Source of the DNA: an uncultured Pseudobdellovibrionaceae bacterium
Lineage (GTDB): Bacteria > Patescibacteriota > Minisyncoccia > Moranbacterales > GCA-2747515
DNA: 64,000 nt
NCBI GenBank assembly: GCA_964463705.1
Contig: CAYXCH010000021.1
Span: forward strand, 65,162 to 129,161
Direction: 5' to 3'
Positions within the stretch are counted from its first letter, which is position 1. Every line of letters starts with the position of its first letter. The notes beneath the pieces were generated by a model. That model was not told the DNA's origin. It ran no database searches and saw nothing but the letters and a program-made list of their open reading frames with translations. The translations under genes were made by a program, and so were the position numbers. This document shows positions 17,310 to 41,664 of the stretch, one piece after another.

Positions 17310-17328
17310 TCAATACACGCGATAGTGT

Positions 17329-19354: not shown

Positions 19355-19357
19355 ATA

Positions 19358-20341: not shown

Positions 20342-20361
20342 TTCTATTGATACTTAGCAAA

Positions 20362-23027: not shown

Positions 23028-23028
23028 G

Positions 23029-23100
23029 TAGCCCGTAGGGGAATCGAACCCCTGTTACGAGGATGAAAACCTCGCGTCCTAACCACTAGACGAACGGGCC
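23029..23100 (-). tRNA. tRNA-Glu (anticodon TTC)
   Basis: Reverse complement GGCCCGTTCGTCTAGTGGTTAGGACGCGAGGTTTTCATCCTCGTAACAGGGGTTCGATTCCCCTACGGGCTA, closely parallel to canonical bacterial tRNA-Glu. Confidence 0.8.
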
Positions 23101-23145
23101 GTGAATACGTCCCCCATTATACAGAAAATTTCCAACTGCGCAAGT

Positions 23146-24363
23146 CTAATATGATAAACGATAAGAATATGTCTGTGCGGTCACCTCTCGTAACGCGCGC
23201 TCTACCAGCGCATCCTCATCATACGTGCGCAATGCCGCCTCCACCTCCTCTGCCGTTGCCCGCAATACCGGAGATCCGGGCATAAAGTTGCTGCACGTAT
23301 CATCATGTGGACGAACGGAAATATCATGGGTTCCAATGTGCTGGGCGCGAGCAATAATTTCCTGCTTACTCATTCCGCAGAGCGGACGGAGCAACGGCAT
23401 CGTCACCGGCGCACCGGTAACCGTCATATTTTCCAACGTTTGACTTGCCACCTGCCCCACCGATTCTCCGGTAACCAGCGCCCGCGCGCCCACTGTTTCC
23501 GCATAGGCCTCCGCTACACGATTCATAAACCGACGAAGTAATACCACGCGTAACGCATCTTGTTTTCCTTCCAGTGCAATCGCTTTCATTGCCGGCACTA
23601 CCGGCACTATTGCCAGACGCACGCTCCCCGTATACTGCGCCAGCACCTGTGAAAGATCGCGCACCTTTTGCACCGATGCCTCTGATGTATGCGGCATTCC
23701 ATGAAAATGAATGGCGGAAATTTCCACTCCACGCGTCGCAATCATCCATGCCGCTACCGGTGAATCAAACCCGCCGGACAATAATGCCACCGCATGTCCC
23801 GACGTCCCCACCGGCAATCCGCCAACTCCGCGCTCTTTGATATATACCAACACCCATGAACGCAGAATCTCCACCACAATCTCCCGTTCCGCTCCCCGCA
23901 ACGCGACAGAGGCGGATTCCCCGCGCGCTGTCCGATCGGCAACTACCGCCGCGCCATATCGCCGCGCCAGCTCTTGCGATGTCCCGGGAAAGTTCTTGTC
24001 TACGCGCTTGACCGTTACACGAAACGTTTTCCATGTCCCTCGCGACGCCGCCACTACATGATGAATTATCTCCGTCTCTTTCGTTTCTTCCTCTCGTGGA
24101 ATCATAACGCCAAGTCCGTACCCGACAATACCGGGAGTCATGCGCAAAACAGATCGCACCGCATCGGCGGTACGTTCCGTTACACCATGGACAATCATGC
24201 GTCCCCACCACCGCTCACATCGCATTGCCGAATCTATGGTGCAAAGCTTCCGCGCGATATTATCCCGCAATGTATTCTCAAACCATCGCCGATTGCCCCC
24301 CTTAAGCGCAATCTCATCATAGGTTATCACTGCACACTGTGTACCGATTTGCATTTCCATCAA
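23146..24363 (-). CDS. thiI: tRNA 4-thiouridine(8) synthase
   Basis: THUMP-like N-terminus plus PP-loop SGGFDSPVAAWM. Confidence 0.85.
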   Translation of the reverse strand: MMEMQIGTQCAVITYDEIALKGGNRRWFENTLRDNIARKLCTIDSAMRCERWWGRMIVHGVTERTADAVRSVLRMTPGIVGYGLGVMIPREEETKETEIIHHVVAASRGTWKTFRVTVKRVDKNFPGTSQELARRYGAAVVADRTARGESASVALRGAEREIVVEILRSWVLVYIKERGVGGLPVGTSGHAVALLSGGFDSPVAAWMIATRGVEISAIHFHGMPHTSEASVQKVRDLSQVLAQYTGSVRLAIVPVVPAMKAIALEGKQDALRVVLLRRFMNRVAEAYAETVGARALVTGESVGQVASQTLENMTVTGAPVTMPLLRPLCGMSKQEIIARAQHIGTHDISVRPHDDTCSNFMPGSPVLRATAEEVEAALRTYDEDALVERALREVTAQTYSYRLSY

Positions 24364-24455
24364 CTCTTTAAATTATAATATGTAATACATCTCTCAACTA
24401 TAAGCACAGACATTAAATACTACTAAAAACATTTGTAGTATATTCCTAAAGATAC

Positions 24456-25535
24456 TTATCTACATCGTGGAAGCGATATTCTTCTTACAACATCTACTTC
24501 CTTTATAATCTCTTTATGAGATTCAATTAATGGTAGAATACGCACCTCTTTGACACCACTATACAATAATGCAACTGGATCTATATCACCATTAATAATA
24601 TTCTGCAAATAAAGATCATTTGGTAATATCCCTTGATCAATATATTGCTGAATTTCATTCCATCCAAACTCTGCCATCAGTGTTTGACGAATAAACTTTG
24701 TTAGTAACTTCTTTTCATGCTGCTCTTTTTGTTGCAGACTAAGCACCTTATAAAAATCATCATTACTGCGCTCCCATGATGTGATAATCGGAACAATGCC
24801 ACGACCATATCTTTTAATAAGATGCATGATAGCAATAATCTCCTCAACACCACTGAGCTCATAGCGCTTTCCATCATGCTCCACAAATGCTCGCTCCTCT
24901 TCCGGTGCGCGCTTTCGTGATATTTTAGGAAAACCACCAACAGAGCGTAACTTATGTATATCCCATAAAGCAAAAGTATTTGCAATGCGCCCATGTAATA
25001 CACTTTCATCAAGTGTGTGTGGAGAATGATATATTCCATGATCCGGAATTAAAAGCTTTTCTTTATCTAAATCTCCAAAGATTGTTGGTCCACTGACATA
25101 AGCACCATCATACATTGCACGGACTGTCTCTTCATAAATAGGGAGTGAAAACGTTTTATGAACAACTTCAGGAGAAATAATCAAAGAGTGTGTCTGCCCA
25201 TCATTTTCCTGCGCATGTAGTGGCTGATTTAGCGCCTCACAAAAGATATCACCGTTTACAATCGGCATAATCTTAATACGGGAGTCCTTACCAATAGATG
25301 ATTGTAACTCTGAAAGAATAACAGTGGATGCTGCGCAATCCTCTCCAAGCTCTGTAACAAAACGACGATCATTCCATACAGCAATTGTAATTGATTTTAG
25401 CGGCTCAATTGCAGATGCTGTTTTATCTAAAAGATGTGTTGCTGCATCTGCAACAAACTGAGCGCGCTCTATTGCTCGTATTGGATCTTTTTCATAAACT
25501 CGTATAATCCCCGATATATTCATAATAGATTGCAA
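24456..25535 (-). CDS. Hypothetical protein encoded in a strongly AT-rich island (no family recognised)
   Basis: 359-aa ORF with local GC of roughly 35-40%, against about 58% in flanking genes. Flanked by AT-rich intergenic regions carrying TATAAT-like boxes. Confidence 0.4.
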   Translation of the reverse strand: MQSIMNISGIIRVYEKDPIRAIERAQFVADAATHLLDKTASAIEPLKSITIAVWNDRRFVTELGEDCAASTVILSELQSSIGKDSRIKIMPIVNGDIFCEALNQPLHAQENDGQTHSLIISPEVVHKTFSLPIYEETVRAMYDGAYVSGPTIFGDLDKEKLLIPDHGIYHSPHTLDESVLHGRIANTFALWDIHKLRSVGGFPKISRKRAPEEERAFVEHDGKRYELSGVEEIIAIMHLIKRYGRGIVPIITSWERSNDDFYKVLSLQQKEQHEKKLLTKFIRQTLMAEFGWNEIQQYIDQGILPNDLYLQNIINGDIDPVALLYSGVKEVRILPLIESHKEIIKEVDVVRRISLPRCR

Positions 25536-25622
25536 TATTAAAATATATTTTTATATAATAACATAAAATGCGGCTTCCTACAAGATAATATTATTGTTGT
25601 CACATAAAAATACTAACCCCTA

Positions 25623-26153
25623 CTATTGAATCACTCGTAATGCCGTAACCGCGCGATATACACTGTCACAACTGACCAGAGTGCGAGAAATCTCCCGCGG
25701 ATCATACAATGCGATCTGCGCCACATCATCCGCCGCACGACACTGTGCGTAAGTTTCTTCGGAAATTGGTGCAAGAAAATGAATATCCACTCCCAGTGTT
25801 GTTACTCCCTTGTACGGATACGTAAATGATCCACTGCACAAATAACGCAGTACTGACGGAGAAAGCGTGATTCCCAACTCCTCATGAATTTCTCGCACCG
25901 CCGCATCCTCAAATGATTCCGGCGCATCCACAAATCCGCCGGGAAAATCCCATTTCCCTTTATTTGGATCATGGGCGCGCTGCGCCAATACCACGCGTCC
26001 ATCCGGTAGTTGTAGAACAACACTAACCGCTGCAGACGCATTCTGAAACAGCTCCGATCCGCACGTACCACATCGTGTCATACGCTGCGGAATCCGCTCC
26101 AATTCCGTACCGCCGCAGAACGGACAGTACCGCTGTTGCGTAAGATCAAACAT
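25623..26153 (-). CDS. NUDIX hydrolase with N-terminal C4 zinc-ribbon
   Basis: CPFCGG...CGTCG zinc ribbon, then the Nudix box GGFVDAPESFEDAAVREIHEELGI. Confidence 0.8.
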   Translation of the reverse strand: MFDLTQQRYCPFCGGTELERIPQRMTRCGTCGSELFQNASAAVSVVLQLPDGRVVLAQRAHDPNKGKWDFPGGFVDAPESFEDAAVREIHEELGITLSPSVLRYLCSGSFTYPYKGVTTLGVDIHFLAPISEETYAQCRAADDVAQIALYDPREISRTLVSCDSVYRAVTALRVIQ

Positions 26154-27138
26154 TGCGTTCTTTTAATGGCTTCCACCAAGAGGTATGTTCACGAAACCAT
26201 TCTACCGTCCGCTCCAATCCCTCATCCAATGTCACACTCGGCGTCCATCCCAACTCTTCGCGGATTTTGGTGTAATCAATATCGTAACGAAAATCATGTC
26301 CTTTACGATCCTCCACATACCGAATTACATCCTCCTCCTTCTTTCCCATCAGCGCAACCAGCGTCCGAACAATATCTATATTGGTCGGCTGATTATCACC
26401 ACCGACACCATATGTCTCTCCACTGCGTCCACGACGAATAATCAAGTCAATCGCACGACAGTGATCGGTCACAAATAACCAATCCCGCACCTGCATTCCC
26501 GTCCCGTACACCGGTACCGTCTTCCCTTCCATCATATTGGTGATCGCCAAAGGAATCAGTTTCTCCGGAAAGTGGTACGGACCATAATTGTTTGTGCAAT
26601 TACTTATCGTCACATCCACACCGTAAGTACGATGATAGGCGCGCACCAGGTGATCCGATCCCGCCTTGGACGCACTGTACGGACTGCTCGGATCATAGGG
26701 CGTCTCCTCGGTGAACGGCGGATCGTTGGGTCCGAGATCACCAAAAACCTCATCAGTGGAAACATGATGAAAACGAATAGACCGCCCCGCTTCTTGCGCA
26801 TTCCGCACCGCCTCCAACAATGTAAACGTACCGACAATATTTGTTTGAATAAACACCGCCGGACCCGTAATAGAGCGGTCCACGTGACTTTCCGCCGCAA
26901 AATGTACAACCGTATCTATTCCATCATCTATCAACCGGCGGACAAGCGCACCATCACAAATATCTCCGTGGACAAATGTAAATCGTGGATCATCATCCCA
27001 CTGTGCCAGTGTTGCGCGACACCCGGCATATGTTAACTTATCCAATACGACAACACGATCTTCCGAAGAACGACTCAATATGTAGTGCACAAAGTTTCCC
27101 CCGATAAATCCGGCACCACCGGTAACAAGATAGTTCAT
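26146..27138 (-). CDS. rfbB: dTDP-glucose 4,6-dehydratase
   Basis: MNYLVTGGAGFIGGNFV Rossmann motif, YSASKAGSD (catalytic YxxxK), 330 aa. Confidence 0.9.
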   Translation of the reverse strand: MNYLVTGGAGFIGGNFVHYILSRSSEDRVVVLDKLTYAGCRATLAQWDDDPRFTFVHGDICDGALVRRLIDDGIDTVVHFAAESHVDRSITGPAVFIQTNIVGTFTLLEAVRNAQEAGRSIRFHHVSTDEVFGDLGPNDPPFTEETPYDPSSPYSASKAGSDHLVRAYHRTYGVDVTISNCTNNYGPYHFPEKLIPLAITNMMEGKTVPVYGTGMQVRDWLFVTDHCRAIDLIIRRGRSGETYGVGGDNQPTNIDIVRTLVALMGKKEEDVIRYVEDRKGHDFRYDIDYTKIREELGWTPSVTLDEGLERTVEWFREHTSWWKPLKERNV

Positions 27139-27199
27139 AAAAAACGCACAATTATTCTTAATACTGCCATTCTACCAATACTTTACATTCGGGACAATA

Positions 27200-28330
27200 T
27201 TATGGCGTTATGGAGCGGATATACCAATAAAAAATCCCTTTGGCAGCATCAGAACAACGCCCATCATCCGTACATCCACAACGCCACTGCATCCCCTGGC
27301 GCTCACACTGGTAGACCGCCACAATATTGGAGCGAGCCGTTACTGCCGGAGGGAGTGTGCCAACTGCCGTTCCGATAATCCATTTCCCTGTTGTATCCCG
27401 TATTCCCTGTAATGAGATTGCCTGCGTAAAATTTTGCCCATCCGTTGTTGCATATGCCGTTGCATATGTATATGTTTGTTTATTGCCTGTCCGAAACTGC
27501 CACGGCAACTGATCACAACGAACATGCAGCCTTTCTTCACCTACCGGAATTAATGCGGGATTTTGCACAAATAACGGAATCGGTCCCGTACAGGTACGTG
27601 GGAGTGTTCCCAAATTCTCCGATGAGGAGTTCTGCATGGAAGTATTTTGTAAAGCAGTGGCATTCATGGCAGCGGCAAATGTCTCCGCCATAACATCATA
27701 TCCTTTGGCATTGGGATGGACGCCATCTACCATCAACGTCGTTTGCCAATCCGGTTGTGACACAAATGCCGCATACTGATCTACCAAGTAGAGTTGTGGG
27801 ATATGAGCGGAGGCAACATAAGAGCGAATCTCGGAATTCAATTCCTGTGCCCGAGCGTTTGCCGGTCCATCAATGGGAATGATTGTGGATACATAAATAC
27901 CAATCTGTGCATCATGCTGCACAATTGCATCCACCATTGCACGAATATTGGCAATCGTGCTCTCAATGGAATTTCCATTTAGCACATCATTGGTGCCGGC
28001 ATGAATAAGAACAACGGAGCCCGATGGCGCATCTGCCAGTTCATTTGTAAGATTTTGCCGCAAGCGATTCAATATTTGCGGTGTCTCTTGTCCACTGACT
28101 GCCGAATGATCATAATCACCATCTCCCACTCCGTTACGAAACGGTCCGACAAAATCATATGCCCCCATTCCAAGCAATCGCTGTAACGTCCCACGGTAAG
28201 AAAAATAAAACGGTGCCGGATACCCTTCGGTAATGGAGTCGCCTAGTGGGAGAAGTCGTGGAGGTGCCGCCGATACAGTGTCCACAATCAAAACAAAAAG
28301 CAGTATCCCGCCAAATAACAATCGGAACAT
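27200..28330 (-). CDS. Secreted SGNH/GDSL-family hydrolase with C-terminal Cys-rich module shared with the 1435-aa surface protein
   Basis: Signal peptide, then LGDSITEGY (block I Ser), GTNDV, DGVHP (block V). The last ~90 aa, TAYATTDGQNFT...QWRCGCTDDGRCSD...FYWY, are homologous to the C-terminus of ORF 30061..34368. Confidence 0.7.
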   Translation of the reverse strand: MFRLLFGGILLFVLIVDTVSAAPPRLLPLGDSITEGYPAPFYFSYRGTLQRLLGMGAYDFVGPFRNGVGDGDYDHSAVSGQETPQILNRLRQNLTNELADAPSGSVVLIHAGTNDVLNGNSIESTIANIRAMVDAIVQHDAQIGIYVSTIIPIDGPANARAQELNSEIRSYVASAHIPQLYLVDQYAAFVSQPDWQTTLMVDGVHPNAKGYDVMAETFAAAMNATALQNTSMQNSSSENLGTLPRTCTGPIPLFVQNPALIPVGEERLHVRCDQLPWQFRTGNKQTYTYATAYATTDGQNFTQAISLQGIRDTTGKWIIGTAVGTLPPAVTARSNIVAVYQCERQGMQWRCGCTDDGRCSDAAKGIFYWYIRSITP

Positions 28331-29481
28331 TAGGCAAACATGCTAAATTGCTTACGATACCGATCCATCATATCCGATATTTTTGATCGGATAATTTGTG
28401 CATTGTATTTCATATATTCTTCATTGATAGTGATATTTCTGTATGCAAAATCAATATGTAGCAACATGGATACATGAGAAATGAGAATGCGTGCAATCTC
28501 TAAATTTAGAAGCGCGTCTTCCGGTCTCTGCTCATATGTTGTCAAAAATGATTTCATAGTGGGCGTATACTGTATATCATCTATATCACCATCCTCTTTT
28601 AGATAATAAAAACTACCGAGTGTATCTACAACGGGTCTAACGATGTTTGTTTTCACAGCATTAATATAATGCCTCTCTGTCTCATCTAAAAAGATAGAAT
28701 CACGATCACGAGAGGTGTCCATCAGTGTCGCCAACAGATTGCGTACCTCTTTATTCTCGGAAAGCTCTGCCGCTGTCAATACAAACGCTCTTTGCATTAA
28801 GCGCTCACGAAACGATTGGTTGGCAGTAAGATAAATTGACCATAAATTATCCATGCTATTGTTGTGTGTACCATTATATGATTTTCCGGAAAGCATTTGA
28901 GCATATACAGATTCCATGGACGGATAAAAAGAAAACTCTTCAAAAGACTGATCAATATCATGAAAAAATGATATCTCCGCCCCTCGTTTAGACATTAATT
29001 CCTTAACAAAGAAAGATATTGTGGTCAGCCCCACTGTTGCATCCGGTGAATACTCTTGCCGCTCCGCACCCTCACTCCCCTGTGCTTCTTTGGGTACTCT
29101 TAGGGTGTGTTTTGCGGTATTTACTATACGATCAACAAATGCCGCCGTTTTGAGTGCGGGAGTCATACCCACCGTGGAACGTATTCCATGACGTACCCAA
29201 GATGGAATATCTCCTCCGGTGTCAATCACCTGAATTGCCTGATCCACCGCCTGCGTCCGACTCTTAGACTCTTCCGTTATATCCTCTCCAAAATAATCGG
29301 CATAAAATTCTTCCAAAATATTTCGTGGCGAAACACCACGGTCTTGAGCCAGCGAAAACACCGCTCGTCGAGCAAGCGCAGCGTCAATCAACGGCGGACG
29401 TTGATGTTTTTGTGTATTAAACGGATTCTCCATCATCACATTTGGTAAATACGGGTAATTGCGAATCTTTTTCACTAACAA
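28330..29481 (-). CDS. Hypothetical protein (lower-GC, no family recognised) inside the rfbB/rfbC surface locus
   Basis: 383-aa ORF. TAATG overlap with the SGNH gene start. Start may be at an internal Met (M16 or M17) to reduce overlap with the rfbC stop. Confidence 0.4.
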   Translation of the reverse strand: MLVKKIRNYPYLPNVMMENPFNTQKHQRPPLIDAALARRAVFSLAQDRGVSPRNILEEFYADYFGEDITEESKSRTQAVDQAIQVIDTGGDIPSWVRHGIRSTVGMTPALKTAAFVDRIVNTAKHTLRVPKEAQGSEGAERQEYSPDATVGLTTISFFVKELMSKRGAEISFFHDIDQSFEEFSFYPSMESVYAQMLSGKSYNGTHNNSMDNLWSIYLTANQSFRERLMQRAFVLTAAELSENKEVRNLLATLMDTSRDRDSIFLDETERHYINAVKTNIVRPVVDTLGSFYYLKEDGDIDDIQYTPTMKSFLTTYEQRPEDALLNLEIARILISHVSMLLHIDFAYRNITINEEYMKYNAQIIRSKISDMMDRYRKQFSMFA

Positions 29482-30028
29482 TCGGACGTGCTATGCCATA
29501 GCGTTCCATCGGCCACGGAATTGCCAGTGTCGGATCATTCCACCGAATACCGGCGTCATGAGAGGGTGTATATACCGCATGGGTACATTTGTAGGAAAAT
29601 AACGTATCATCATCTAATGCAAGAAATCCGTGGGCAAATCCCGGTGGAATCCAGAACTGTTTCCATGTCCACATTTGTGTATTCGCATCAAATGTCGGTG
29701 GTGTTAATGTTATATGCACAGATGATCCATACGTCGGCGATGTCGGTCGCATATCTACCGCCACATCAAACACCGCTCCGCGAAGTACGCTCACCAATTT
29801 CCCCTGCGCATAAGGTGCACGCTGAAAGTGCAGACCACGCAATACGCCTCGTGCGGAACAGGAAAGATTATCTTGCACAAATGCGTCCTCTGACACTCCC
29901 AGCGCCCGCGCATACTCCTCCCGACGAAAACTTTCCACAAAGAAACCGCGCGCATCACCAAACACGCGCGGTGTCACGATTTTCACATCGGGAATTGTTG
30001 TGGGTGTAACATCAATCATTGAACACAT
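29417..30028 (-). CDS. rfbC: dTDP-4-dehydrorhamnose 3,5-epimerase
   Basis: PRVFGDARGFFVESF and the downstream cupin core are typical of RmlC. 203 aa. Confidence 0.85.
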   Translation of the reverse strand: MCSMIDVTPTTIPDVKIVTPRVFGDARGFFVESFRREEYARALGVSEDAFVQDNLSCSARGVLRGLHFQRAPYAQGKLVSVLRGAVFDVAVDMRPTSPTYGSSVHITLTPPTFDANTQMWTWKQFWIPPGFAHGFLALDDDTLFSYKCTHAVYTPSHDAGIRWNDPTLAIPWPMERYGIARPIVSEKDSQLPVFTKCDDGESV

Positions 30029-30060
30029 CTACCTCCTCCTCAGAAGAGGGGGTATTTCAT

Positions 30061-33000
30061 CTAGCGCGATACCGCTGTTTCATATCCTGCAACATACCAG
30101 ATAAATCGGCCGGCGGCGGGATCAGAGCAGACACCGGAACCGGTACATCCGCATTGCCACTGATTTCCGCTACGCTTACACGTATACGTTGCCACATACT
30201 GTTGACCGCCATCCGCCGGAAGTTGTATCTCACCACGCCCGATAACCCATTGTCCCGTTGAATCCATTGTACCACTTACCGGTACGGAATTGGTAAAGTT
30301 GGAACCGTCGGTTGTATAGTATGCCGTATTCCACGTATATATCGTATCCCGATCTTCTCCAACCACCGCAATAGGTGAACCGCCATCACAGTATACATCA
30401 ATAATTGCAGCACCATTAGTCAATGTTTCGTTTAGCTCACTCGGGACACGCGTTTCACATGAGTGTCGCAAATCTCGCGTAACCGGCGATACCGGACTTG
30501 TCGGTGATGTGCCAACCTCTGTTGATGCTCCTATCGTTGTTGTTGTTGTATTCTTCGTTCCAGTGGTGGTAGTTGTCGTATCGTTGGGACACTGACGGAA
30601 TTCACAATTATTCTTCGGATCCCTTCCCACATATGTCCGTCCATCGGCGCAAAGTTTAACATCTGCCGTACATGCCGTCTGAACAACATCTTTATCCTGT
30701 GTATTCTCCGTATCAACACTTCCGACATATTTTGCAAGCATACATCCGGGATTCAAGCTGGCATTTTCACCATCCGAGTGAACCGCCGCCACACTGTACG
30801 CATCTTGTGACAGTACAACACGACCCACACCCTCCGCATGACCTTGCGCTTCTACCGTTTTTAGATCCGTTGTCGGATTTGTTTGAACAATCGCCTCTCC
30901 GTTTTTCCCATAAAACGCAACGTAGTATCGCTCGTTCGGCTGATCTTGATTATGGCGACCATCAAAGGAGTCTGATGCGGAAAGATATACTTCATACACA
31001 CCGCGCGGAATTGTGATACCGCTGATAACATCTTTTTGCCCCGCCCATTCCAGACGCTGTGTAAACCGTACAATAATATCTCGAGAACTTCCCGTCTTAA
31101 ACGGACAGTAATTAATATACTGGGCATTTTCCGTTCCATCCACCGCCGTTGTTCCAATATGATCACCCACAACAACAGTCAGCGTCTTTTTATGCTCCGC
31201 TTCACCGCTCTTTCGCGGAGTACACGTCAAAGTAAATTCTGTTGTTTGATCTACATACATCAACTCTTCCTGACTACTCCATGTCTGCAAATCAATAGAC
31301 TTTACCGCCGCCCGCGCTCGTACATAAGCGGAATTGTTTTCCATTCCCTTGCGAGAGACCTTACAGGATTTCATTCCATAGAAATCCCAACTTAGCAAAA
31401 CATATCCCGGATCAGTCAGGTGCGGTTTATTGGCGGTAAAGTACCGAATACCGGCCGTCCCCCCGACGCGAACATCTTTGGTGCGAACTTCTGTAATTGT
31501 CGCATCCGCCAAGTCATAACATGCAAGGGATACATGGACTGTTCCATCTTCAAATCCATGAAGTGCAAACGTCTTACTATATGCCGTTGCCTCATAGTAT
31601 ACGGCACGCGGAATCAACTCTATCGCCCGACTTCCGGACGAAGTGCGCTGTGATGCAACCAAGCGACAACGCATCGGTTTCTTATCCACCACCGCCCAAG
31701 TAGCGGTAACACTTCCACCGGACTCTACACTTTCCGGCGTAACATCAAAGGAGGAAATAAAGGTCCCCGCCGTGGAAGGATCTCCGGAAGTATCCGCCGG
31801 ATCCGTTGTTGTTCCCGTGTCGGAAAATGTAATAATTACGGTTCGTGTATCGTTGGTATTTGTTCCCACACGCCAACAATCCAGTGCCAATACAACCTGA
31901 TCACCGGATGCGGCGGTAGATCCGAAATTACTCCACGTCAATGACCCCTTTACAGTAAGTTTATCCTTTCCTTCCACAACCTTAACAAGAGACTCATCAA
32001 TTGCCTTGATCCCGGCAACCGTCCATCCGTTATATGCACGACAGTGACTGCGATCATCAGCATAGTTCCACGCAATGGAGAGATCACTTCCCGGAGCTAC
32101 CGTAATGCTATCCGATGCTCCATTAACGGTAAATGCAAATGCGGGCGCATCAGAATCAGTCTGCTGTGTGGTATCTCCTTGAACTTTTACCGTTATACTT
32201 GCAGATACCTCATTAAGACCAAACGCATTGGAACAGGTGATGGTGTATGTTGAGTCTGCGGTAATTCCCGGAACGGTAAACTCTCCCTGTGGTTTCAGGA
32301 CGGTACGATAAATACGAAACGTCGTTGCATCGGAAGCACTTGCCTTTACATCGTTGGCAGACCATGCACCGGACGCCGTACAAAATGTACGATTCGGAGC
32401 ATTCCACTGTAGCGTAAAGTGTTGTCCGGGCGCAACCGTTTGTGTGCCTTCTTTGATAGAGAATGCAACAGTTCCATCTGTTGCCGTAGGAGCATTTCCC
32501 ACCGTTTTTGTCGCTGTCAACGGTTTTGTGTCGGGCTGTACCACTCCGTTGGCACTCACTCGATGACGCAGACATCGTATTGTGAAAGAATAATATCCGG
32601 CCGGCGTTTGAAACTCCACATTTCCGTTCGGCACAAGAGCGCGAGGAGATCCGTCCTTCTCAAACAAGAGCTCGGGCTTATTCTGCAACAATTCTTCCGT
32701 TGTTGTATCTCCCGTGATCAAACAGTAGTCTTTTCCGGTAGTTTTCCACTGTAATGATACGGTATACATTTCATTGTTATCCGGAGATGATGCCACCGCC
32801 TGAAAATCCAATGATGCGGAATCCTGAGACACGAACCCTCCACTATCATCGGAAGAATCATTGTTATTTCCATTGTTGGAAGAGTTACCACCTGCCGAAT
32901 CAACAACGTTAAGAGTGATTGTGGAAGTTTTGATATAATGGCGTGGTGCCGGATACTTACATGTTAATACCGCCTTATATTCCCCCGGAGAGTCAAATAC

Positions 33001-34368
33001 CACCGGATAGAATACCCTATTATTAGATGCTGTGGATTGTAGTTTTCCTCTATCAAAATCTGCATCATATTTGGAAAATGTCGCATCACCCACCTTTGAA
33101 ACCCTGATCGAACATTCCGTTGCAGGTACGGTTAATTTTTTTATCTTAAAATAGTTAAACCAATTCAATGTTACCGTCTCACCAATGGCAATATTATCTT
33201 GCTTTGTTGCATAAAATGATAATATTGCACGATCACCGGTGACCTCACCACCCGTGGCATCCATCGCCTTAAAGCGAATATTTGCACGTAATGGATAGTA
33301 AGTTTCCGTACCACATTCTTCATGTGCTTGACACTCTCTTGTGCCGCGACAACGTAACTCAAATGTCTGTGACCAATTAATGCTGTCAAACGTAAGTGTG
33401 TCTGATGTCTTGACATCCGGACGATATTGATCCAGACTTGCACTGCATGAATCAGCATTCGGAACATTCCAAGAAATCTTTACCGGCGTATCCAGTGGCA
33501 CCGAAATATCTCCCGATGTATTCTCGTAAACGGTATCACCAACGATAACGGCAAAAGGTCGCCTACTTTCATCCACGGATGATGTATCTACTTTTACGGT
33601 ACGATGCGAATCATAGTATGTTCCTCCACTCTTTGAATGCTCAAGACATTTTAGGTGTATATTAAGATCCGAATTTCCATAATCATCCGCATGGAGTGTT
33701 ACTTGACCGGATTTTTTAGAAACACCGGGAACAGGTTTCTCGTTAACAAACATCCTACACCTATCATCCATTGCGCGAGGTGCATTCCACGATGCGACAA
33801 CGGAACCATATTTTGGAATCGTTTCCTTATCAACAGACAGAGCCGTTTTATCTACAACCGTCATCCACCAGGAACTCCCGTACACCTTTCCATCCTTTGT
33901 ATCTTTGTCACAAACAAGTACAAACGTATTCTTTCCCAGCGAATAAAGATCCGGTGTTATTTTTAAACGTTTATCTTTGGTAATCGTTACTATTTTCTGC
34001 TTCTTTCCCTTAGCATTATCCAAATATACCGTACACTGCGGATAATAAAAAGAACCGCCATCTTCACCCTCCTCGCGTCTTCCAATACCATTAGCATTGG
34101 CAAGTATTGATATTTCCTCATCTTTATACACTTCCGCCCCGCTATCAAATATGCCGTATCCATAAAACTTAATATCGGGTCGACTTTTATCAATATAATC
34201 ATATCCTTCAACAACCTCCGCTGAAGCGGTGTGCATGGACGCAAAGATGCCAACGATACCAATCCCCAGCGCAAGAACCCCCTTCATCACAACATTGCCC
34301 ACCCAATGCCGCACAAAATACCCGATATTATGAGAATATCGTATATATTTGTTTTTCATAAAAACCAT
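30061..34368 (-). CDS. Giant (1435 aa) membrane-anchored/secreted beta-sandwich repeat surface protein with conserved Cys-rich C-terminal module
   Basis: N-terminal signal/anchor helix. Many 90-110-aa repeats of W/Y/T/S/G-rich beta-strand character with paired Cys. The Thr-rich linker TTTTTGTKNTTTTT precedes a C-terminal module similar to the SGNH hydrolase C-terminus. Confidence 0.6.
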   Translation of the reverse strand: MVFMKNKYIRYSHNIGYFVRHWVGNVVMKGVLALGIGIVGIFASMHTASAEVVEGYDYIDKSRPDIKFYGYGIFDSGAEVYKDEEISILANANGIGRREEGEDGGSFYYPQCTVYLDNAKGKKQKIVTITKDKRLKITPDLYSLGKNTFVLVCDKDTKDGKVYGSSWWMTVVDKTALSVDKETIPKYGSVVASWNAPRAMDDRCRMFVNEKPVPGVSKKSGQVTLHADDYGNSDLNIHLKCLEHSKSGGTYYDSHRTVKVDTSSVDESRRPFAVIVGDTVYENTSGDISVPLDTPVKISWNVPNADSCSASLDQYRPDVKTSDTLTFDSINWSQTFELRCRGTRECQAHEECGTETYYPLRANIRFKAMDATGGEVTGDRAILSFYATKQDNIAIGETVTLNWFNYFKIKKLTVPATECSIRVSKVGDATFSKYDADFDRGKLQSTASNNRVFYPVVFDSPGEYKAVLTCKYPAPRHYIKTSTITLNVVDSAGGNSSNNGNNNDSSDDSGGFVSQDSASLDFQAVASSPDNNEMYTVSLQWKTTGKDYCLITGDTTTEELLQNKPELLFEKDGSPRALVPNGNVEFQTPAGYYSFTIRCLRHRVSANGVVQPDTKPLTATKTVGNAPTATDGTVAFSIKEGTQTVAPGQHFTLQWNAPNRTFCTASGAWSANDVKASASDATTFRIYRTVLKPQGEFTVPGITADSTYTITCSNAFGLNEVSASITVKVQGDTTQQTDSDAPAFAFTVNGASDSITVAPGSDLSIAWNYADDRSHCRAYNGWTVAGIKAIDESLVKVVEGKDKLTVKGSLTWSNFGSTAASGDQVVLALDCWRVGTNTNDTRTVIITFSDTGTTTDPADTSGDPSTAGTFISSFDVTPESVESGGSVTATWAVVDKKPMRCRLVASQRTSSGSRAIELIPRAVYYEATAYSKTFALHGFEDGTVHVSLACYDLADATITEVRTKDVRVGGTAGIRYFTANKPHLTDPGYVLLSWDFYGMKSCKVSRKGMENNSAYVRARAAVKSIDLQTWSSQEELMYVDQTTEFTLTCTPRKSGEAEHKKTLTVVVGDHIGTTAVDGTENAQYINYCPFKTGSSRDIIVRFTQRLEWAGQKDVISGITIPRGVYEVYLSASDSFDGRHNQDQPNERYYVAFYGKNGEAIVQTNPTTDLKTVEAQGHAEGVGRVVLSQDAYSVAAVHSDGENASLNPGCMLAKYVGSVDTENTQDKDVVQTACTADVKLCADGRTYVGRDPKNNCEFRQCPNDTTTTTTGTKNTTTTTIGASTEVGTSPTSPVSPVTRDLRHSCETRVPSELNETLTNGAAIIDVYCDGGSPIAVVGEDRDTIYTWNTAYYTTDGSNFTNSVPVSGTMDSTGQWVIGRGEIQLPADGGQQYVATYTCKRSGNQWQCGCTGSGVCSDPAAGRFIWYVAGYETAVSR

Positions 34369-34433
34369 ACACTTTTTATTACATAATACTTATTTACAAT
34401 ATATCATACCACCCCCTGGCGTCGCAAGTACTC

Positions 34434-36044
34434 CTACTCTCGTGTCAAGTCCTCCAGTGTCAGCTCCGTATCATGACGCAATGCGTCGGTATGATATGTA
34501 TATCGCGTACCATCCGGAAGAATAACAGTTAGTGTAAACGGTGTGTCGGCAATTCCGGATTGCTTTTGAATCTTGAACCGATAATTTTCCGGCGTAATAG
34601 ACGTCGGTAACACATACTGCAACATTGTCGGAAGCACGGGACGCTCACCGATAAGAACATCAAATTTATAAGCGTAAACCGTCCGATTGGCAAATGTTTC
34701 TGTATCCGCCGATGGCGGGAAAAACCACTCCCGTGTAATCCACCGCGATCCGCGCGGAACAATCATGCGCGTATAGGAATGATAATCTTTGGTGTCCCAA
34801 TCTTCCGACTTCGCCGTGTGCGTATAAGTAACCCGTGTTGTTGCGAGGGCATGGGGCGCACGATATGATCCGCTCATAATTTTCTCTTTCAAATCCGCCG
34901 TCCGATAACGTATCATACGTCCCGCCGCCGCATCATTGACCACCGCCCCTCGCCCGCGAAAATCTACTGTGTGCTCAATCACTCGTGTAATATATCGATC
35001 ACTCTTAAGTGACCCGAGATTTGCATCCACAACAAAGAGATAATCCCCCGTCCATTCCGTGTCCACCTCTCCCGTCCAATGATGTTCTCGCGCAATGGAT
35101 TGCAATCGCTCATCAGCAAGGAACAGCTGAATATCTTTTCGCTCCAATCCCTCCAACACAAAGTGAATCAGCGCCGGAATTGTCTGTGGAAGCTTCTGCG
35201 GAGCAGTAAGACGATGAACGATTTCCGCACCAAGATCCTTCATAACCTGCTTCCGCTGAACACGCTCCCACGGACGAACGCGACGAATTTTCTTTCCATT
35301 TTCATCTCGCGGCTCCGTGTACTTTTTCCCCAGGCGCTCTGCCTCCGCTTCTGCACGCTCCACCGCCGCGTCACGCAACAAAATATCTTTTTCTACCGCT
35401 TCCTGCAACTGCCACGCCGCATCCTCCGGCGTAAACGTCACCGTATAAGACCCCCGCTGACGACTCTTTGCTGTGACAGTGATGGGGCCGGTCACCGCGA
35501 TGAGATCATTCAACAATGTTGCGTTAAGCGCCACCACCGCATCAAACTGCGGATTGCTCTGTGGATTCAGCCCATAGAAATGCAACACATCCCGTACCGC
35601 AGTGGGAAAATCCGGAGAGAAATTGGCATCTCGGAACTTCCACTTTTTAATACCCATGTACTTCGCCAGTGGCGGAAGCGCCGGCCGATCACTCTTGATA
35701 CTTTTATCAAAACGATTTGCGTCCACAATCTCCATCTGTGTAACACGCCCATTCCGAATTTCCATGACCGCAAATTGCCCTAAAAATCCTCCCGTAGGTC
35801 GCAATTCAAAATTATTCTGCAACAATACAAATATCCGATATGTCCGATCATCCGACGCAAGGAACGCTTTGGCAATTTCTGTCAATGCCCGCATCTCCTC
35901 CTCCTGTCCCTCCGGTGCGGGCAAATAGTCAATTGCCGTTTTCGCAGCAGTGGTAATAATAATGTGTTCATTTTTTTGAAACAGTATGTATCCGCCGGCA
36001 CCCAGAATCAGTACCGCAAGCACTATGCCAAAAATCGTCTTCAT
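34434..36044 (-). CDS. DUF4012-like membrane-anchored extracytoplasmic protein
   Basis: N-terminal TM segment plus NNFELRPTGGFLGQFAVMEI, a motif recalled from the DUF4012 family. 536 aa. Confidence 0.45.
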   Translation of the reverse strand: MKTIFGIVLAVLILGAGGYILFQKNEHIIITTAAKTAIDYLPAPEGQEEEMRALTEIAKAFLASDDRTYRIFVLLQNNFELRPTGGFLGQFAVMEIRNGRVTQMEIVDANRFDKSIKSDRPALPPLAKYMGIKKWKFRDANFSPDFPTAVRDVLHFYGLNPQSNPQFDAVVALNATLLNDLIAVTGPITVTAKSRQRGSYTVTFTPEDAAWQLQEAVEKDILLRDAAVERAEAEAERLGKKYTEPRDENGKKIRRVRPWERVQRKQVMKDLGAEIVHRLTAPQKLPQTIPALIHFVLEGLERKDIQLFLADERLQSIAREHHWTGEVDTEWTGDYLFVVDANLGSLKSDRYITRVIEHTVDFRGRGAVVNDAAAGRMIRYRTADLKEKIMSGSYRAPHALATTRVTYTHTAKSEDWDTKDYHSYTRMIVPRGSRWITREWFFPPSADTETFANRTVYAYKFDVLIGERPVLPTMLQYVLPTSITPENYRFKIQKQSGIADTPFTLTVILPDGTRYTYHTDALRHDTELTLEDLTRE

Positions 36045-37135
36045 AGGGTATCAATTACTCGTGATGTTTCGCTATGTTGCGCATGTGTACGAATATGTAC
36101 ATCGTGTTGCGGGAACGGAATCTCTATTCCGGCAGCGGCAAATCGTTTATAAATTGCACGATTAACATAATGTCGGGACTCTCCCCGTTGCTCCGGACGT
36201 GCCACCCAATAGAACAAACTATACTCTATACTGGACTCCCCAAACGCCCGAAACCGAGCGCGCGGTGCCGGCGTGTCCACTACCAATTCCGTCTCCGTTG
36301 CCGCAGCAATTAACTCTTGTTCCACTTTATCAATATCCGATCCGTATGCCACGCCGACATCTACACGAACGCGAAACCGCTCTGATGGGCCGCCGGACTC
36401 GTTCACAATCTTGGTATTGCCCATGATACCGTTCGGCACCGTCACTTCCACATCATCGCGCGTCAGCATGCGCGTAGACCGCAGTCCGATATGTGTCACT
36501 CGTCCCCGCTCACCGCTATCCAACTCAATATAGTCTCCAATCTTATACGGTGCATCCGCTACGATAAACACGCCCGCAAAAAGATTGGCCAACGTATCCT
36601 TCGCCGCAAATCCCACCGCCATCCCGATAATTCCCGCACTGGCGAGCCACGCTGTCATGTTAATACCCCAAATGGTGAATATTGCATATAATGCCGCCGC
36701 CACGATCAATACCACCAACGCATTTTCAAATAACGGTAACGTTTGCTCTTTTACAAACGTCACTTGTGGAATGTCTTTGGACTTGTACAATACTGCACGA
36801 ACCGCATGAAACAAAAACTGTGCCCAGAGGAATACAAGAATAGTCTGCACGATACGCATTCCAAATTGCGCACTCTCCATCCCGATGATACCGTCCATTG
36901 TCAGTGCGGCCAGCGCACCGAAAAGAAACACCGAATAAAACAATGGACGCTGTAACGCCGCAATAATGCGATCATCAATCTCCGTTGTCGTATGCCGTGT
37001 TACGGCTCGCAACATACCGATAACAACGATACGCACAATCACTGCCGCCATCACCACCCCCACGCCGAGCAAAATCAGTTGAATAGTATGGGGCTGCGCG
37101 GCAAACAGTGTGGAAATCTCTGTACGAATACTCAT
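36041..37135 (-). CDS. Mechanosensitive ion channel, MscS family
   Basis: Several N-terminal TM helices, then the MscS beta-domain KIGDYIELDSGERGRVTHIGLRSTRMLTRDDVEVTVPNG. Confidence 0.8.
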   Translation of the reverse strand: MSIRTEISTLFAAQPHTIQLILLGVGVVMAAVIVRIVVIGMLRAVTRHTTTEIDDRIIAALQRPLFYSVFLFGALAALTMDGIIGMESAQFGMRIVQTILVFLWAQFLFHAVRAVLYKSKDIPQVTFVKEQTLPLFENALVVLIVAAALYAIFTIWGINMTAWLASAGIIGMAVGFAAKDTLANLFAGVFIVADAPYKIGDYIELDSGERGRVTHIGLRSTRMLTRDDVEVTVPNGIMGNTKIVNESGGPSERFRVRVDVGVAYGSDIDKVEQELIAAATETELVVDTPAPRARFRAFGESSIEYSLFYWVARPEQRGESRHYVNRAIYKRFAAAGIEIPFPQHDVHIRTHAQHSETSRVIDTL

Positions 37136-37146
37136 AGGACTTGCGG

Positions 37147-38505
37147 TTAGCGATCAATCGGGAATCGGCGACAGACGGAACGAACATCGGCGCGAATTGC
37201 ACGTAACGATGTATCTCGTGCACACCGCGCTCGGAACGCTCGCACCGCGGCGGCACGATTCGTTGTCGGCATCTCCACATCGGCAATAAGATCCATTACC
37301 GCCGAAATCCACACGGCAATCTTTTTCATCTCTCGCACTCCCATACCCCGTGTCGTAATACTCGGCGTTCCGATGCGAATACCGCTGGGGTAGAACGGAC
37401 TGGACGCATCGGCGGGAATGGTGTTTTTATTTACCGTAATCCCGACGGTTTCCAGCGCCAACTCCGCAAATACGCCCCGCCCGACGCCGCAATCAATAAG
37501 CATCAAATGTGTATCGGTTCCACTGCCCACCACACGCACACCGCGATTCTTTAGCTCTTGTGCAAGTACGGCGGCATTCTTCACCACTCGCGCACCGTAT
37601 GCGCGGAATGATGCCGTTGACGCTTCTTTAAGTGCGACGGCAATCGCTGCGGTTTGATGATCATGTGGTCCTCCCTGCAACATCGGAAATACCGCCGCAT
37701 CAATCTTGGCACCCAACTTCGGATCCCGCGCAAGTCCGCGTGATGTCACCATAATCATCCCGCCCCGCGGTCCGCGTAACGTCTTGTGTGTCGTTGTTGT
37801 AATAATATCCACATGTCGCACCGGTGACGGATGAACACCGCTGACAATCAGTCCCGTGATATGTGATGTATCCGCCGCAAGATACGCTCCGACATCCCGC
37901 GCAATCCGCCCGAATGCCGCGTAATTGATTTTCCACGGGTAGGCACTGGTTCCCACCCATATCAACTTCGGACGGTGCTTCTTTGCCAATGTTGCCACTT
38001 CATTCATATCAATCCGCCCACGCCGATTCACATGATATTGAACGGCGGAATAAAACGTCCCCGTCGCACTTGCCTTCCATCCATGGGTAAGGTGTCCGCC
38101 ATCCGGCAACGCCTGCCCCATCACCGTATCTCCCGGCGCACATGTTGCGGCATATACGGCGAGATTTGCCGGCGAACCGCTGTACGGCTGCACATTGACA
38201 TACGGCACACCGAACAACGCTCGCGCCCGCTCTTGCGCCAACTCCTCAATCGCATCCACATGCTCCTGACCGCCATAATACCGCTTCCCCGGATATCCCT
38301 CGGAATACTTGTTTGTCAAGATTGAGCCCATCGCTTCCCGCACCGCCGCAGACGCGATATTCTCTGACGGAATCAATTCCATTGTCTCATTCTGCCGGCG
38401 CGCCTCCGCCGCAATCAGTGTCGCAACTCGCGGATCACTCTGCCGCAATGATGTTCGCGTTCGTGATGATTTTGCGGTAGTTTTTGCGGTCTTCATATCC
38501 TTCAC
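37147..38505 (-). CDS. glyA: Serine hydroxymethyltransferase with about 40-aa N-terminal extension
   Basis: TTTTHKTLRGPRGG PLP-lysine motif and an SHMT fold throughout. Confidence 0.9.
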   Translation of the reverse strand: MKDMKTAKTTAKSSRTRTSLRQSDPRVATLIAAEARRQNETMELIPSENIASAAVREAMGSILTNKYSEGYPGKRYYGGQEHVDAIEELAQERARALFGVPYVNVQPYSGSPANLAVYAATCAPGDTVMGQALPDGGHLTHGWKASATGTFYSAVQYHVNRRGRIDMNEVATLAKKHRPKLIWVGTSAYPWKINYAAFGRIARDVGAYLAADTSHITGLIVSGVHPSPVRHVDIITTTTHKTLRGPRGGMIMVTSRGLARDPKLGAKIDAAVFPMLQGGPHDHQTAAIAVALKEASTASFRAYGARVVKNAAVLAQELKNRGVRVVGSGTDTHLMLIDCGVGRGVFAELALETVGITVNKNTIPADASSPFYPSGIRIGTPSITTRGMGVREMKKIAVWISAVMDLIADVEMPTTNRAAAVRAFRARCARDTSLRAIRADVRSVCRRFPIDR

Positions 38506-38663
38506 ATAATTAACCCGTTATTTTTCCATCATACCACAGAAATACTTTTTATATAAAACACAAATAACAAAGACCGTCCATTCCGTAACAGTAATGACAT
38601 CACTCATCCGGACTACTTGCACAATTTGTATTGAAAATATCTCAAATACTTGCAAATAATAAA

Positions 38664-38690
38664 AAAACCCCCGTCATTGGGGGGTCTTAT
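38664..38690 (-). terminator. Intrinsic terminator directly after rplU
   Basis: acccccgtcattggggggt hairpin followed on the minus strand by a T-tract (plus strand aaaaaaa at 38660-38666). Confidence 0.55.
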
Positions 38691-39017
38691 TTATGCGTTA
38701 ATCTTTGTAATCTTCACCATCGTAAGCGGTTGCCGATGCCCAAAGAAAATGCGATATCGCTTCTTTGGCTTATACTTCACACCGCTGACTTTCTTTGCTC
38801 GTGTCTGATCAACAATTGTCCCCTCTACCGTCGCACCGTCCACCGTGGGAGATCCCAATGTAACGGATGGCGTCTCTCCCTCCTCCGCTACCAACAATAC
38901 CTCATCAAATGTCACCGTTGTCTCCGGTGCTCCGTCAATTTTCTCTACGGCGACAACATCACCCTCCGCCACGAGGTACTGCTTTCCGCCGGTCTTTATC
39001 ACTGCAATCATAGTCAT
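38691..39017 (-). CDS. rplU: 50S ribosomal protein L21
   Basis: MIAVIKTGGKQYLVAEGDVVAVEKI... Canonical L21. Confidence 0.85.
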   Translation of the reverse strand: MTMIAVIKTGGKQYLVAEGDVVAVEKIDGAPETTVTFDEVLLVAEEGETPSVTLGSPTVDGATVEGTIVDQTRAKKVSGVKYKPKKRYRIFFGHRQPLTMVKITKINA

Positions 39018-39093
39018 GAAACTTAGTCAAACAAAAACCGCGCTCTGCGCTTTTGCCATATTATCGCATATCTTATACATTTTGTCCAGCACA

Positions 39094-41661: not shown

Positions 41662-41664
41662 AGA

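What the first reader, a model, noticed from the sequence alone, without database searches (positions are those of the whole stretch)
27203..30348. A conserved Cys-rich C-terminal module of about 85 aa is shared by a secreted SGNH hydrolase and a 1435-aa surface protein in the same locus
The last ~90 residues of ORF 27200..28330 (QTYTYATAYATTDGQNFTQAISLQGIRDTTGKWIIGTAVGTLPPAVTARSNIVAVYQCERQGMQWRCGCTDDGRCSDAAKGIFYWYI) align by eye with the last ~90 residues of ORF 30061..34368 (TIYTWNTAYYTTDGSNFTNSVPVSGTMDSTGQWVIGRGEIQLPADGGQQYVATYTCKRSGNQWQCGCTGSGVCSDPAAGRFIWYV). About 40-45% of positions are identical, including TAY.TTDG.NFT, TG.W.IG, Y.C.R.G.QW.CGCT..G.CSD.A.G.F.WY and four conserved Cys. 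The two proteins otherwise have unrelated catalytic and adhesin bodies, and both carry N-terminal secretion signals. A C-terminal module shared between unrelated secreted proteins is the hallmark of a sorting or anchoring tag, as with T9SS CTDs, PEP-CTERM or LPXTG, or of a shared glycan-binding domain. I do not recognise this module as any named family, and two copies sit within 3 kb.
Basis: seen in the sequence. Interest (0 to 1): 0.72.

Follow-up and report, generated by a model that had tools for sequence, protein, structure and literature searches.

The report
Uncatalogued disulfide-rich domain on secreted proteins
Two unrelated secreted proteins of an uncultivated (Moraniibacteriota-like) bacterium share a real, previously uncatalogued 140-residue beta-sandwich domain; it is a movable module found at either end of many secreted enzymes, most likely a sugar-polymer-binding "handle", and not a C-terminal sorting tag.

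Summary
The tails of the SGNH esterase (27200..28330, -) and the 1435-aa protein (30061..34368, -) align at 49% identity over 85 aa (BLASTP E=1e-23). The unit is larger than reported: about 140 aa with six conserved Cys.

The sorting-tag reading fails. Of 87 proteins, the domain is N-terminal in 39, C-terminal in 27, internal in 3, essentially alone in 18, and sometimes tandem. In one related genome it is C-terminal on the SGNH ortholog and N-terminal on two beta-helix proteins. The candidate "processing" gene is not conserved.

Fusion partners are beta-helix, GH26, CE4, polysaccharide lyase, DPBB, SGNH, peptidases, TIG and LRR. The conserved DUF4012–giant–rmlC–SGNH–rmlB synteny sits in an envelope-glycan context. 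Together these point to a non-catalytic glycan-binding or surface-targeting module.

It is a new family of a familiar kind. Binding and ligand are untested. Interest is moderate.

The parts
27203..27613 (-). Domain copy 1: residues 240-376 of the SGNH protein, with six Cys (247, 272, 342, 351, 353, 359). The strongly conserved core is 27203..27484.
   Evidence: BLASTP E=1e-23 to copy 2. Family HMM E about 1e-28. AF2 model pLDDT 84.8, all-beta.
27695..28246 (-). SGNH/GDSL esterase catalytic domain (residues 29-212) of the same protein. The GDS, GTND and DGVHP blocks are present, and the domain contains no Cys.
   Evidence: PF13472 E=2.9e-23. The nearest solved relatives are small GDSL esterases such as 2vpt and 5b5s.
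28268..28330 (-). Probable Sec signal peptide of the SGNH protein (MFRLLFGGILLFVLIVDTVSA).
   Evidence: Read from the translation. Not run through a signal-peptide predictor.
30064..30477 (-). Domain copy 2: residues 1298-1435 of the 1435-aa protein, with six Cys (1304, 1327, 1397, 1406, 1408, 1414).
   Evidence: BLASTP E=1e-23 to copy 1. Family HMM E about 5e-28.
30478..30585 (-). Thr/Ser/Pro-rich linker (…NDTTTTTTGTKNTTTTTIGASTEVGTSPTSPVSPVT) between the body of the giant protein and the domain.
   Evidence: Read from the translation. P0003 has a comparable T-rich linker.
30586..34368 (-). Body of the giant secreted protein: N-terminal signal-like segment, about 10 Cys-pair repeats, a conserved block of about 140 aa, and a 4-Cys knot. 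It matches no Pfam family or PDB sequence.
   Evidence: Orthologs are P0001, P0002, P0004, P0006, P0007 and P0008.
29417..30028 (-). rmlC (dTDP-4-dehydrorhamnose 3,5-epimerase), lying between the two domain-bearing genes. Its position is conserved in relatives.
   Evidence: TIGR01221 E=7e-62. Synteny in L003, L004, L009 and L011.
26146..27138 (-). rmlB (dTDP-glucose 4,6-dehydratase), immediately downstream of the SGNH gene. Its position is conserved in relatives.
   Evidence: TIGR01181 E=2.6e-149. Synteny in L003, L004, L011 and L014.
34434..36044 (-). DUF4012 membrane protein immediately upstream of the giant protein. This adjacency is conserved.
   Evidence: PF13196 E=8e-23. Adjacent to the giant-protein ortholog in L004 and L009. 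The literature links it to CPS/EPS loci.
28330..29481 (-). Unknown gene between rmlC and the SGNH gene. It is NOT part of the feature: it has no signal peptide and is not conserved in syntenic loci.
   Evidence: No Pfam or NCBIfam hit. No homolog in L003, L004 or L014; in L003 rmlC abuts the SGNH gene directly.

Best explanation
The shared segment is an autonomous extracytoplasmic domain of about 140 residues, an Ig-like beta-sandwich with six conserved cysteines that probably form three disulfides. It belongs to a rare family that no curated library tested here contains. It behaves as a mobile non-catalytic module, joined by Thr/Ser-rich linkers to either end of many different Sec-exported proteins. 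These include polysaccharide-active enzymes, peptidases, adhesin-like repeat proteins and a redox enzyme. It also occurs alone or in tandem.

The most likely job is binding. It would act as a lectin-like or CBM-like handle that holds its passenger on a polysaccharide surface. In this locus the two carriers sit among rmlB, rmlC and DUF4012 in an arrangement conserved across relatives. The favoured ligand is therefore the cell's own rhamnose-containing envelope glycan. The CE3-like SGNH esterase would be targeted to that polymer, and the giant repeat protein would be tethered to it non-covalently, much as SLH, LysM or CWB2 domains do in Gram-positive bacteria.

Shown: homology, domain boundaries, variable position, partner repertoire, fold class and synteny.
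Inferred: binding as such, carbohydrate as the ligand, and the identity of the ligand.
For: - Significant homology between the two copies.
- 85 true family representatives from an exhaustive HMMER search.
- The domain sits at the N-terminus, C-terminus, internally, alone or in tandem. Both N- and C-terminal positions occur within one genome.
- Partner domains are those typical of modular secreted enzymes: Beta_helix in 9 proteins, TIG in 5, then Polysacc_deac_1, Polysacc_lyase, DPBB_1, Peptidase_C1, Peptidase_S8, CBM9, LRR and SGNH.
- In L006, three consecutive genes (beta-helix, GH26 and an unknown) each carry a C-terminal copy.
- Two AF2 models are confident and all-beta (pLDDT 84.8 and 95.5).
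- Ten aromatic positions are at least 80% conserved, and six Cys are conserved.
- 69 of 87 proteins have a hydrophobic, signal-like N-terminus.
- Thr-rich linkers precede the domain.
- The synteny DUF4012–giant–rmlC–(variable)–SGNH–rmlB is conserved.
- DUF4012 is linked to CPS/EPS loci in the literature.
- The SGNH domain is closest to small carbohydrate-type GDSL esterases.
Against: - No binding was measured.
- Some partners are not glycan enzymes: cytochrome d1/b5, C1 and S8 peptidases, CAP and LRR. This favours general surface retention or adhesion over substrate targeting.
- The rml/DUF4012 context holds only for the Moraniibacteriota subfamily. Genes in these genomes are co-directional over long stretches, so adjacency is weak evidence of a shared function.
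Confidence: 0.55

Rival explanations
1. It is a C-terminal sorting or anchoring tag, like the T9SS CTD, PEP-CTERM or LPXTG, recognised and processed by a dedicated enzyme encoded nearby.
Against: - 39 proteins carry the domain N-terminally, 3 internally, 18 essentially alone, and some in tandem.
- In one genome it is C-terminal on one protein and N-terminal on two others.
- There is no TM helix or sorting motif after it; the proteins end …FYWYIRSITP and …WYVAGYETAVSR.
- Neither full-length window protein nor any of the 68 domain sequences matched an NCBIfam sorting-signal model such as the T9SS CTD.
- Only 2-3 carriers were seen per genome sampled.
- The candidate processing gene is not conserved.
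- Moraniibacteriota belong to the CPR, which are regarded as lacking an outer membrane, so a T9SS would be unexpected (my own knowledge, not tested here).
Confidence: 0.03
2. It is a protein-protein interaction or adhesion module. It would bind a protein partner such as an S-layer or scaffold protein, DUF4012, pili, or a protein on the surface of a host cell, in the manner of cohesin-dockerin or Ig-like adhesin domains.
Against: The partner spectrum is dominated by polysaccharide-active domains. No conserved partner gene accompanies the domain outside the giant-protein locus. The top structural neighbours are CBMs.
Confidence: 0.2
3. It is a structural or stabilising Ig-like spacer domain with no specific ligand.
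For: The beta-sandwich is generic, with no close structural relative. Much of the conservation (Cys, Gly, aromatics) could be core residues.
Against: Spacer domains are usually internal and repeated. This one is usually terminal, single and set off by flexible linkers. Stand-alone secreted copies and lipoprotein-like tandem copies (P0024) imply a function of its own. Polar positions such as N105, K120, D125 and Q136 are also conserved.
Confidence: 0.12
4. It is a redox or metal-binding module that uses the invariant C-x8-CGC-x4-C cluster, comparable to the Ig-like nDsbD, SoxY or CopC domains.
Against: All of these similarities are at background level. No conserved His or Met was found. An even number of invariant Cys in an exported domain fits structural disulfides. 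The SGNH passenger has no Cys that would need oxidising. Most partners are hydrolases.
Confidence: 0.05

Closest known systems
Carbohydrate-binding modules (CAZy CBMs), structurally nearest CBM56 (beta-1,3-glucan-binding; PDB 5t7a, 6a6c, 7quz)
Non-covalent cell-wall-binding domains of Gram-positive bacteria (SLH, LysM, CWB2, SH3b, GW)
   Same: These are modular domains at the N- or C-terminus of otherwise unrelated secreted enzymes and surface proteins, retaining them on a wall polymer. Several carriers per genome are often encoded near genes for wall-polymer synthesis. Here those genes are rmlB, rmlC and DUF4012.
   Different: There is no sequence match to any of them. The fold and the Cys pattern differ. 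Wall binding has not been shown.
T9SS C-terminal domain (Por secretion tail)
   Same: Both are Ig-like beta-sandwiches shared by unrelated secreted proteins. In the window the domain is at the extreme C-terminus.
   Different: The T9SS CTD is strictly C-terminal, is cleaved, and is confined to organisms with T9SS machinery. This domain is often N-terminal, internal or alone. It matches no CTD model and comes from a CPR lineage.

Membership tests
T9SS C-terminal sorting domain | Located at the extreme C-terminus of every cargo protein | tested here: not met
   The domain is N-terminal in 39 of 87 proteins, internal in 3 and stand-alone in 18. In assembly GCA_054012215.1 it is N-terminal on two proteins and C-terminal on one.
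T9SS C-terminal sorting domain | Sequence match to curated CTD models (the TIGR04183/TIGR04131 type) | tested here: not met
   NCBIfam scans of both full proteins and of 68 domain sequences gave no such hit.
T9SS C-terminal sorting domain | Genome encodes T9SS machinery (PorU/PorV etc.) | not tested
   Only 64 kb plus the fetched loci were available. The lineage is Moraniibacteriota-like, where no T9SS is expected (my own knowledge).
Short tripartite sorting signals (LPXTG, PEP-CTERM, PGF-CTERM) | Short motif followed by a hydrophobic helix and a basic tail at the C-terminus | tested here: not met
   The C-termini read …GIFYWYIRSITP and …RFIWYVAGYETAVSR. There is no motif and no hydrophobic stretch. 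The conserved unit is a folded 140-aa domain.
CBM56 | Sequence homology to CBM56 members | tested here: not met
CBM56 | Shared beta-sandwich fold | tested here: inconclusive
CBM56 | Binds beta-1,3-glucan | not testable with these tools
   Needs a binding assay.
Carbohydrate-binding module in the general CAZy sense | Contiguous, independently folding, non-catalytic module within carbohydrate-active enzymes | tested here: met
   The domain gives confident stand-alone AF2 models. It is fused to Beta_helix, GH26, CE4, polysaccharide lyase, DPBB and SGNH domains.
Carbohydrate-binding module in the general CAZy sense | Demonstrated carbohydrate-binding activity | not testable with these tools
This is the decisive missing feature.
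SGNH/GDSL hydrolase (host protein 27200..28330) | Pfam match plus catalytic blocks I (GDS), III (GxND) and V (DxxH) | tested here: met
   PF13472 E=2.9e-23. The motifs LGDSITEG, HAGTNDV and DGVHPN are visible in the translation.
Any curated Pfam-A or NCBIfam domain | Profile match above or near threshold | tested here: not met
   No family was hit by more than 2 of 68 domain sequences. The best E-values were 0.013 for Pfam and 0.011 for NCBIfam.

The most novel reading that the evidence does not exclude
The domain is the anchoring device of a surface-display system in Moraniibacteriota and possibly other CPR lineages. It would bind a rhamnose-containing envelope glycan built with the adjacent rml/DUF4012 genes, or else a glycan on the host cell of these episymbionts. 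Either way it would retain enzymes and a giant adhesin at the cell surface, as a functional analogue of SLH-SCWP anchoring in a lineage whose envelope biology is essentially unknown.
Probability: 0.2. Interest if true: 0.65.

Novelty: new member of a known kind. Interest (0 to 1): 0.4.

Why it matters
If binding is confirmed, this would be a new CBM-like or wall-binding family from candidate-phyla bacteria, a group whose cell-surface biology and host attachment are poorly understood. It would also give a handle for locating secreted enzymes and a giant surface protein on these uncultivated cells, for example with fluorescent domain fusions as probes, and for annotating about 85 currently nameless protein clusters. 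It does not reveal a new secretion or sorting pathway.

Tried and rejected
- **Word-indexed protein search.** The two-sequence profile found nothing, and the 68-sequence profile found only 2 proteins. The exhaustive HMMER search was needed.
- **Genome scan.** The two-sequence alignment gave no confirmed locus. The 68-sequence alignment was too diverse to yield search patterns. The 10-sequence subfamily alignment worked.
- **Metagenome scan.** It added only 3 short loci, two of them the window organism itself.
- **AFDB Foldseek.** This library was unavailable. Model coordinates were not exposed, so disulfide distances and surface exposure could not be computed.
- **Correlated Cys loss.** It supports pairing only for the first two Cys. 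The last four are effectively invariant, so their connectivity stays unresolved.
- **False positives.** P0036 and P0063 from the HMMER list are repeat and PAS proteins. They were dropped after the second-round profile.
- **Gene 28330..29481 as a processing enzyme.** Rejected. It has no signal peptide, matches no family, and has no homolog in the syntenic loci.
- **DUF4012 as a dedicated partner of the module.** Rejected. It accompanies only the giant-protein ortholog.
- **Literature searches.** Searches on the domain, on CPR CBMs and on Moraniibacteria found nothing relevant beyond the DUF4012 context.
- **Cluster look-up.** It gave no names or taxonomy for family members. The taxonomic range of the wider family is therefore undetermined.
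Full report
**Observation**

The two ORFs are present as described: 27200..28330(-), 376 aa, and 30061..34368(-), 1435 aa. BLASTP of the full proteins yields one significant alignment, between their C-terminal tails. It covers 85 residues with 42 identical (49%), E=1e-23. Searching the six-frame translation of the whole window with either tail recovers only the other copy (E 1e-23 and 1e-19), with nothing else below E=0.6. The similarity is therefore real and far beyond chance, and the window has exactly two copies. That held even with a later family-wide HMM.

**Extent of the unit**

A second-round profile built from relatives extends the homology upstream to about 135-140 residues. It adds a further conserved cysteine pair, so each copy has six Cys: 247, 272, 342, 351, 353, 359 in the SGNH protein and 1304, 1327, 1397, 1406, 1408, 1414 in the giant protein.

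The family signature is C-x~31-C … YIY..AY … W … L.G … G.W..G.A … NYVAAY.C … WKCGC.D..C … W.LQ.F. Ten aromatic positions are at least 80% conserved. The first two Cys are lost together in a tandem-repeat subfamily, which suggests they pair with each other. The last four are essentially invariant. In window coordinates the domains are 27203..27613(-) and 30064..30477(-).

**Is it a known family?**

- Pfam-A finds nothing in either tail.
- Scanning 68 domain sequences one by one, no Pfam family is hit by more than two of them (best E=0.013) and no NCBIfam model matches.
- Profile searches of all PDB sequences find nothing better than E=0.46 and E=1.1.

An exhaustive HMMER search of 1.84 billion cluster representatives returned 87 hits at E<=1e-3. 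Of these, 85 survive a second-round profile; P0036 and P0063 are false positives. Clusters are tiny (1-4 members), derive from metagenomes or MAGs, and carry no names. The domain is thus a rare family absent from the curated libraries tested.

**Position and partners**

Across 87 proteins (85 relatives plus the two from the window):

| Position of the domain | Proteins |
|---|---|
| Just after an N-terminal signal-like segment | 39 |
| C-terminus | 27 |
| Internal | 3 |
| Makes up essentially the whole mature protein | 18 |

P0024, P0025, P0030 and P0039 carry more than one copy: two tandem copies in the first three, and a full copy plus a split second match in P0039. Some entries are fragments, so these counts are approximate.

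Pfam domains found on the same proteins:
- Right-handed beta-helix in 9 proteins, with NosD-like matches in 4
- IPT/TIG in 5
- MopE-type Cys repeats in 3
- C1 peptidase in 2 and DPBB in 2
- Single cases of CE4 polysaccharide deacetylase, polysaccharide lyase, subtilase, CAP, LRR, CBM9, LamG, FN3, F5/8-C, SGNH and a cytochrome b5/d1 enzyme

In locus L006, three consecutive genes each end with the domain: a beta-helix protein, a GH26 enzyme and a 747-aa unknown.

In assembly GCA_054012215.1 the gene neighbourhood is syntenic with the window: the SGNH ortholog is 56% identical and rmlB 78%. There the SGNH ortholog has the domain at its C-terminus, while two beta-helix proteins (P0011 and P0014) have it at their N-terminus.

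69 of 87 proteins have a hydrophobic N-terminal segment. Thr/Ser-rich linkers separate the domain from its passenger in the window's giant protein and in P0003.

**Structure**

AlphaFold2 with the family alignment gives two confident models:

| Modelled sequence | Mean pLDDT | pTM |
|---|---|---|
| Window SGNH copy (first 30 residues uncertain) | 84.8 | 0.79 |
| Canonical member P0046 | 95.5 | 0.89 |

Both are all-beta sandwiches of about 11-12 strands.

Foldseek finds no significant PDB match: best E=0.019, TM at most 0.42. The fold class is therefore an Ig-like sandwich. The CBM56 resemblance is consistent across both models but weak.

**Genomic context**

The genes run co-directionally as MscS – DUF4012 – giant protein – rmlC – unknown – SGNH – rmlB – NUDIX.

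The nearest genomes are Candidatus Moraniibacteriota MAGs, going by their record titles. The same order recurs in several loci:
- L004: DUF4012 – giant – rmlC – 948-aa ORF – SGNH – … – rmlB
- L003 and L011: giant – rmlC – SGNH – rmlB, with no intervening gene
- L009: MscS – DUF4012 – giant – rmlC

The unknown gene 28330..29481 has no homolog in those loci and no signal peptide. It is not a conserved partner.

DUF4012 accompanies only the giant-protein ortholog. It is absent around more distant family members. The literature places DUF4012 in a capsular/exopolysaccharide cluster of Bifidobacterium longum, and reports it enriched in CPR and Gram-positive bacteria (PMC5412050, PMC6744442).

A neighbour-joining tree groups the SGNH-linked copies from three genomes together and most giant-protein copies together. 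The two window copies are therefore old paralogs inherited with their host proteins, not a recent local duplication.

**The host proteins**

The SGNH domain matches PF13472 (E=2.9e-23) and keeps the GDS, GTND and DGVHP catalytic blocks. Its closest solved relatives are small GDSL esterases (2vpt, E=1e-9; 5b5s and 5b5l, described as acetyl esterase). I recall these as CE3-type carbohydrate esterases, from my own knowledge and not from a tool. All six Cys of this protein lie in the module.

The giant protein has no Pfam or PDB relative. Its 32 Cys fall mostly in pairs 37-55 residues apart, which suggests about ten Ig-like repeats. These are followed by a conserved block of about 140 aa, a 4-Cys knot, a poly-Thr linker and then the module.

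**Interpretation**

The C-terminal sorting-tag reading is contradicted by five points:
- the variable position of the domain
- its size and independent fold
- the absence of any motif or helix after it
- the small number of carriers per genome
- the lack of a conserved processing gene

What remains is a mobile, non-catalytic, disulfide-stabilised extracellular module. Its partner spectrum, linkers, tandem and stand-alone forms, aromatic-rich conservation and nearest structural neighbours are those of carbohydrate-binding or wall-binding modules.

For the window locus, the conserved embedding of both carriers among rmlB, rmlC and DUF4012 makes a rhamnose-containing envelope glycan the most economical candidate ligand. 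The esterase would act on or at that polymer, and the giant protein would be tethered to it.

This last step is inference. Adjacency is weak evidence in genomes where every gene over 64 kb lies on one strand. Non-glycan partners such as peptidases and the cytochrome d1 enzyme fit general surface retention or adhesion just as well.

Rivals that remain open are a protein-binding or adhesion module, an inert structural domain, and a redox or metal site built on the CGC cluster (least likely).

**Verdict**

The tag interpretation is rejected, and the alternative binding-domain interpretation is supported but unproven. This is an undescribed family of a familiar kind of module, found in a poorly known bacterial lineage. 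Interest is moderate.

Noticed in passing
window 30724..31146 (-), residues ~1075-1215 of the giant protein: A block of about 140 aa (YINYCPF…QRLEWAGQKD…SASDSFDGR…QDQPNERYYV…HSDGENASLNPGC) is strongly conserved among the giant-protein orthologs P0002, P0004, P0006, P0007 and P0008. It has no Pfam or PDB match and may be a second uncatalogued domain.
   Followed up: partly
window 31200..34100 (-), giant protein residues ~100-1050: About ten cysteine pairs are spaced 37-55 residues apart (112/153, 204/241, 419/470, 549/599, 663/712, 776/831, 901/950, 1002/1049). This suggests a string of disulfide-bonded Ig-like repeats that Pfam does not recognise. Self-BLAST found no significant internal repeats.
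   Followed up: partly
window 30586..30672 (-): A small four-Cys motif, CTADVKLCADGRTYVGRDPKNNCEFRQCP, lies just before the poly-Thr linker. Similar motifs occur in P0006 and P0013.
   Followed up: no
window 1..64000: Every plausible gene in the 64-kb window is on the minus strand, and GC skew is negative throughout (-0.08 to -0.27). Co-directional adjacency therefore says little about operon membership here.
   Followed up: no
window 28330..29481 (-): This unknown ORF overlaps the rmlC ORF at its 5' end (the ENA gene call is 367 aa), and its stop codon overlaps the ATG of the SGNH gene by one base. It has no signal peptide and no family match, and it is absent from syntenic loci in relatives.
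   Followed up: yes
window 47348..50554 (-): A 1068-aa protein with three Calx-beta domains, probably another large surface protein, lies next to a GT1-family glycosyltransferase (46125..47450).
   Followed up: no
L006 7515..13129: Three consecutive genes (a beta-helix protein, a GH26 enzyme and a 747-aa unknown) each carry a C-terminal copy of the domain. Type IV pilin-like genes are nearby.
   Followed up: partly
L015 5055..18461: P0028 has an N-terminal copy of the domain, MopE-type repeats and a C1 peptidase. It is flanked by 650-aa and 2005-aa proteins with T4SS_pilin/Big_5 matches.
   Followed up: no
P0013 (L005 1483..3402), P0017, P0020: A separate eight-Cys motif (GCSGQICSD…CEW…YACY…CERQ.DG.CGWTQT) recurs in several family proteins, alongside Kazal-like segments. 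These organisms appear to secrete many disulfide-rich modular proteins. A DsbA-like gene lies near P0027 in L008.
   Followed up: no
L007 6484..10013: One family member fuses the domain to cytochrome b5 and a cytochrome d1-type beta-propeller. It sits beside a multicopper oxidase and a P-type ATPase, which is an unusual non-glycan context for the domain.
   Followed up: no
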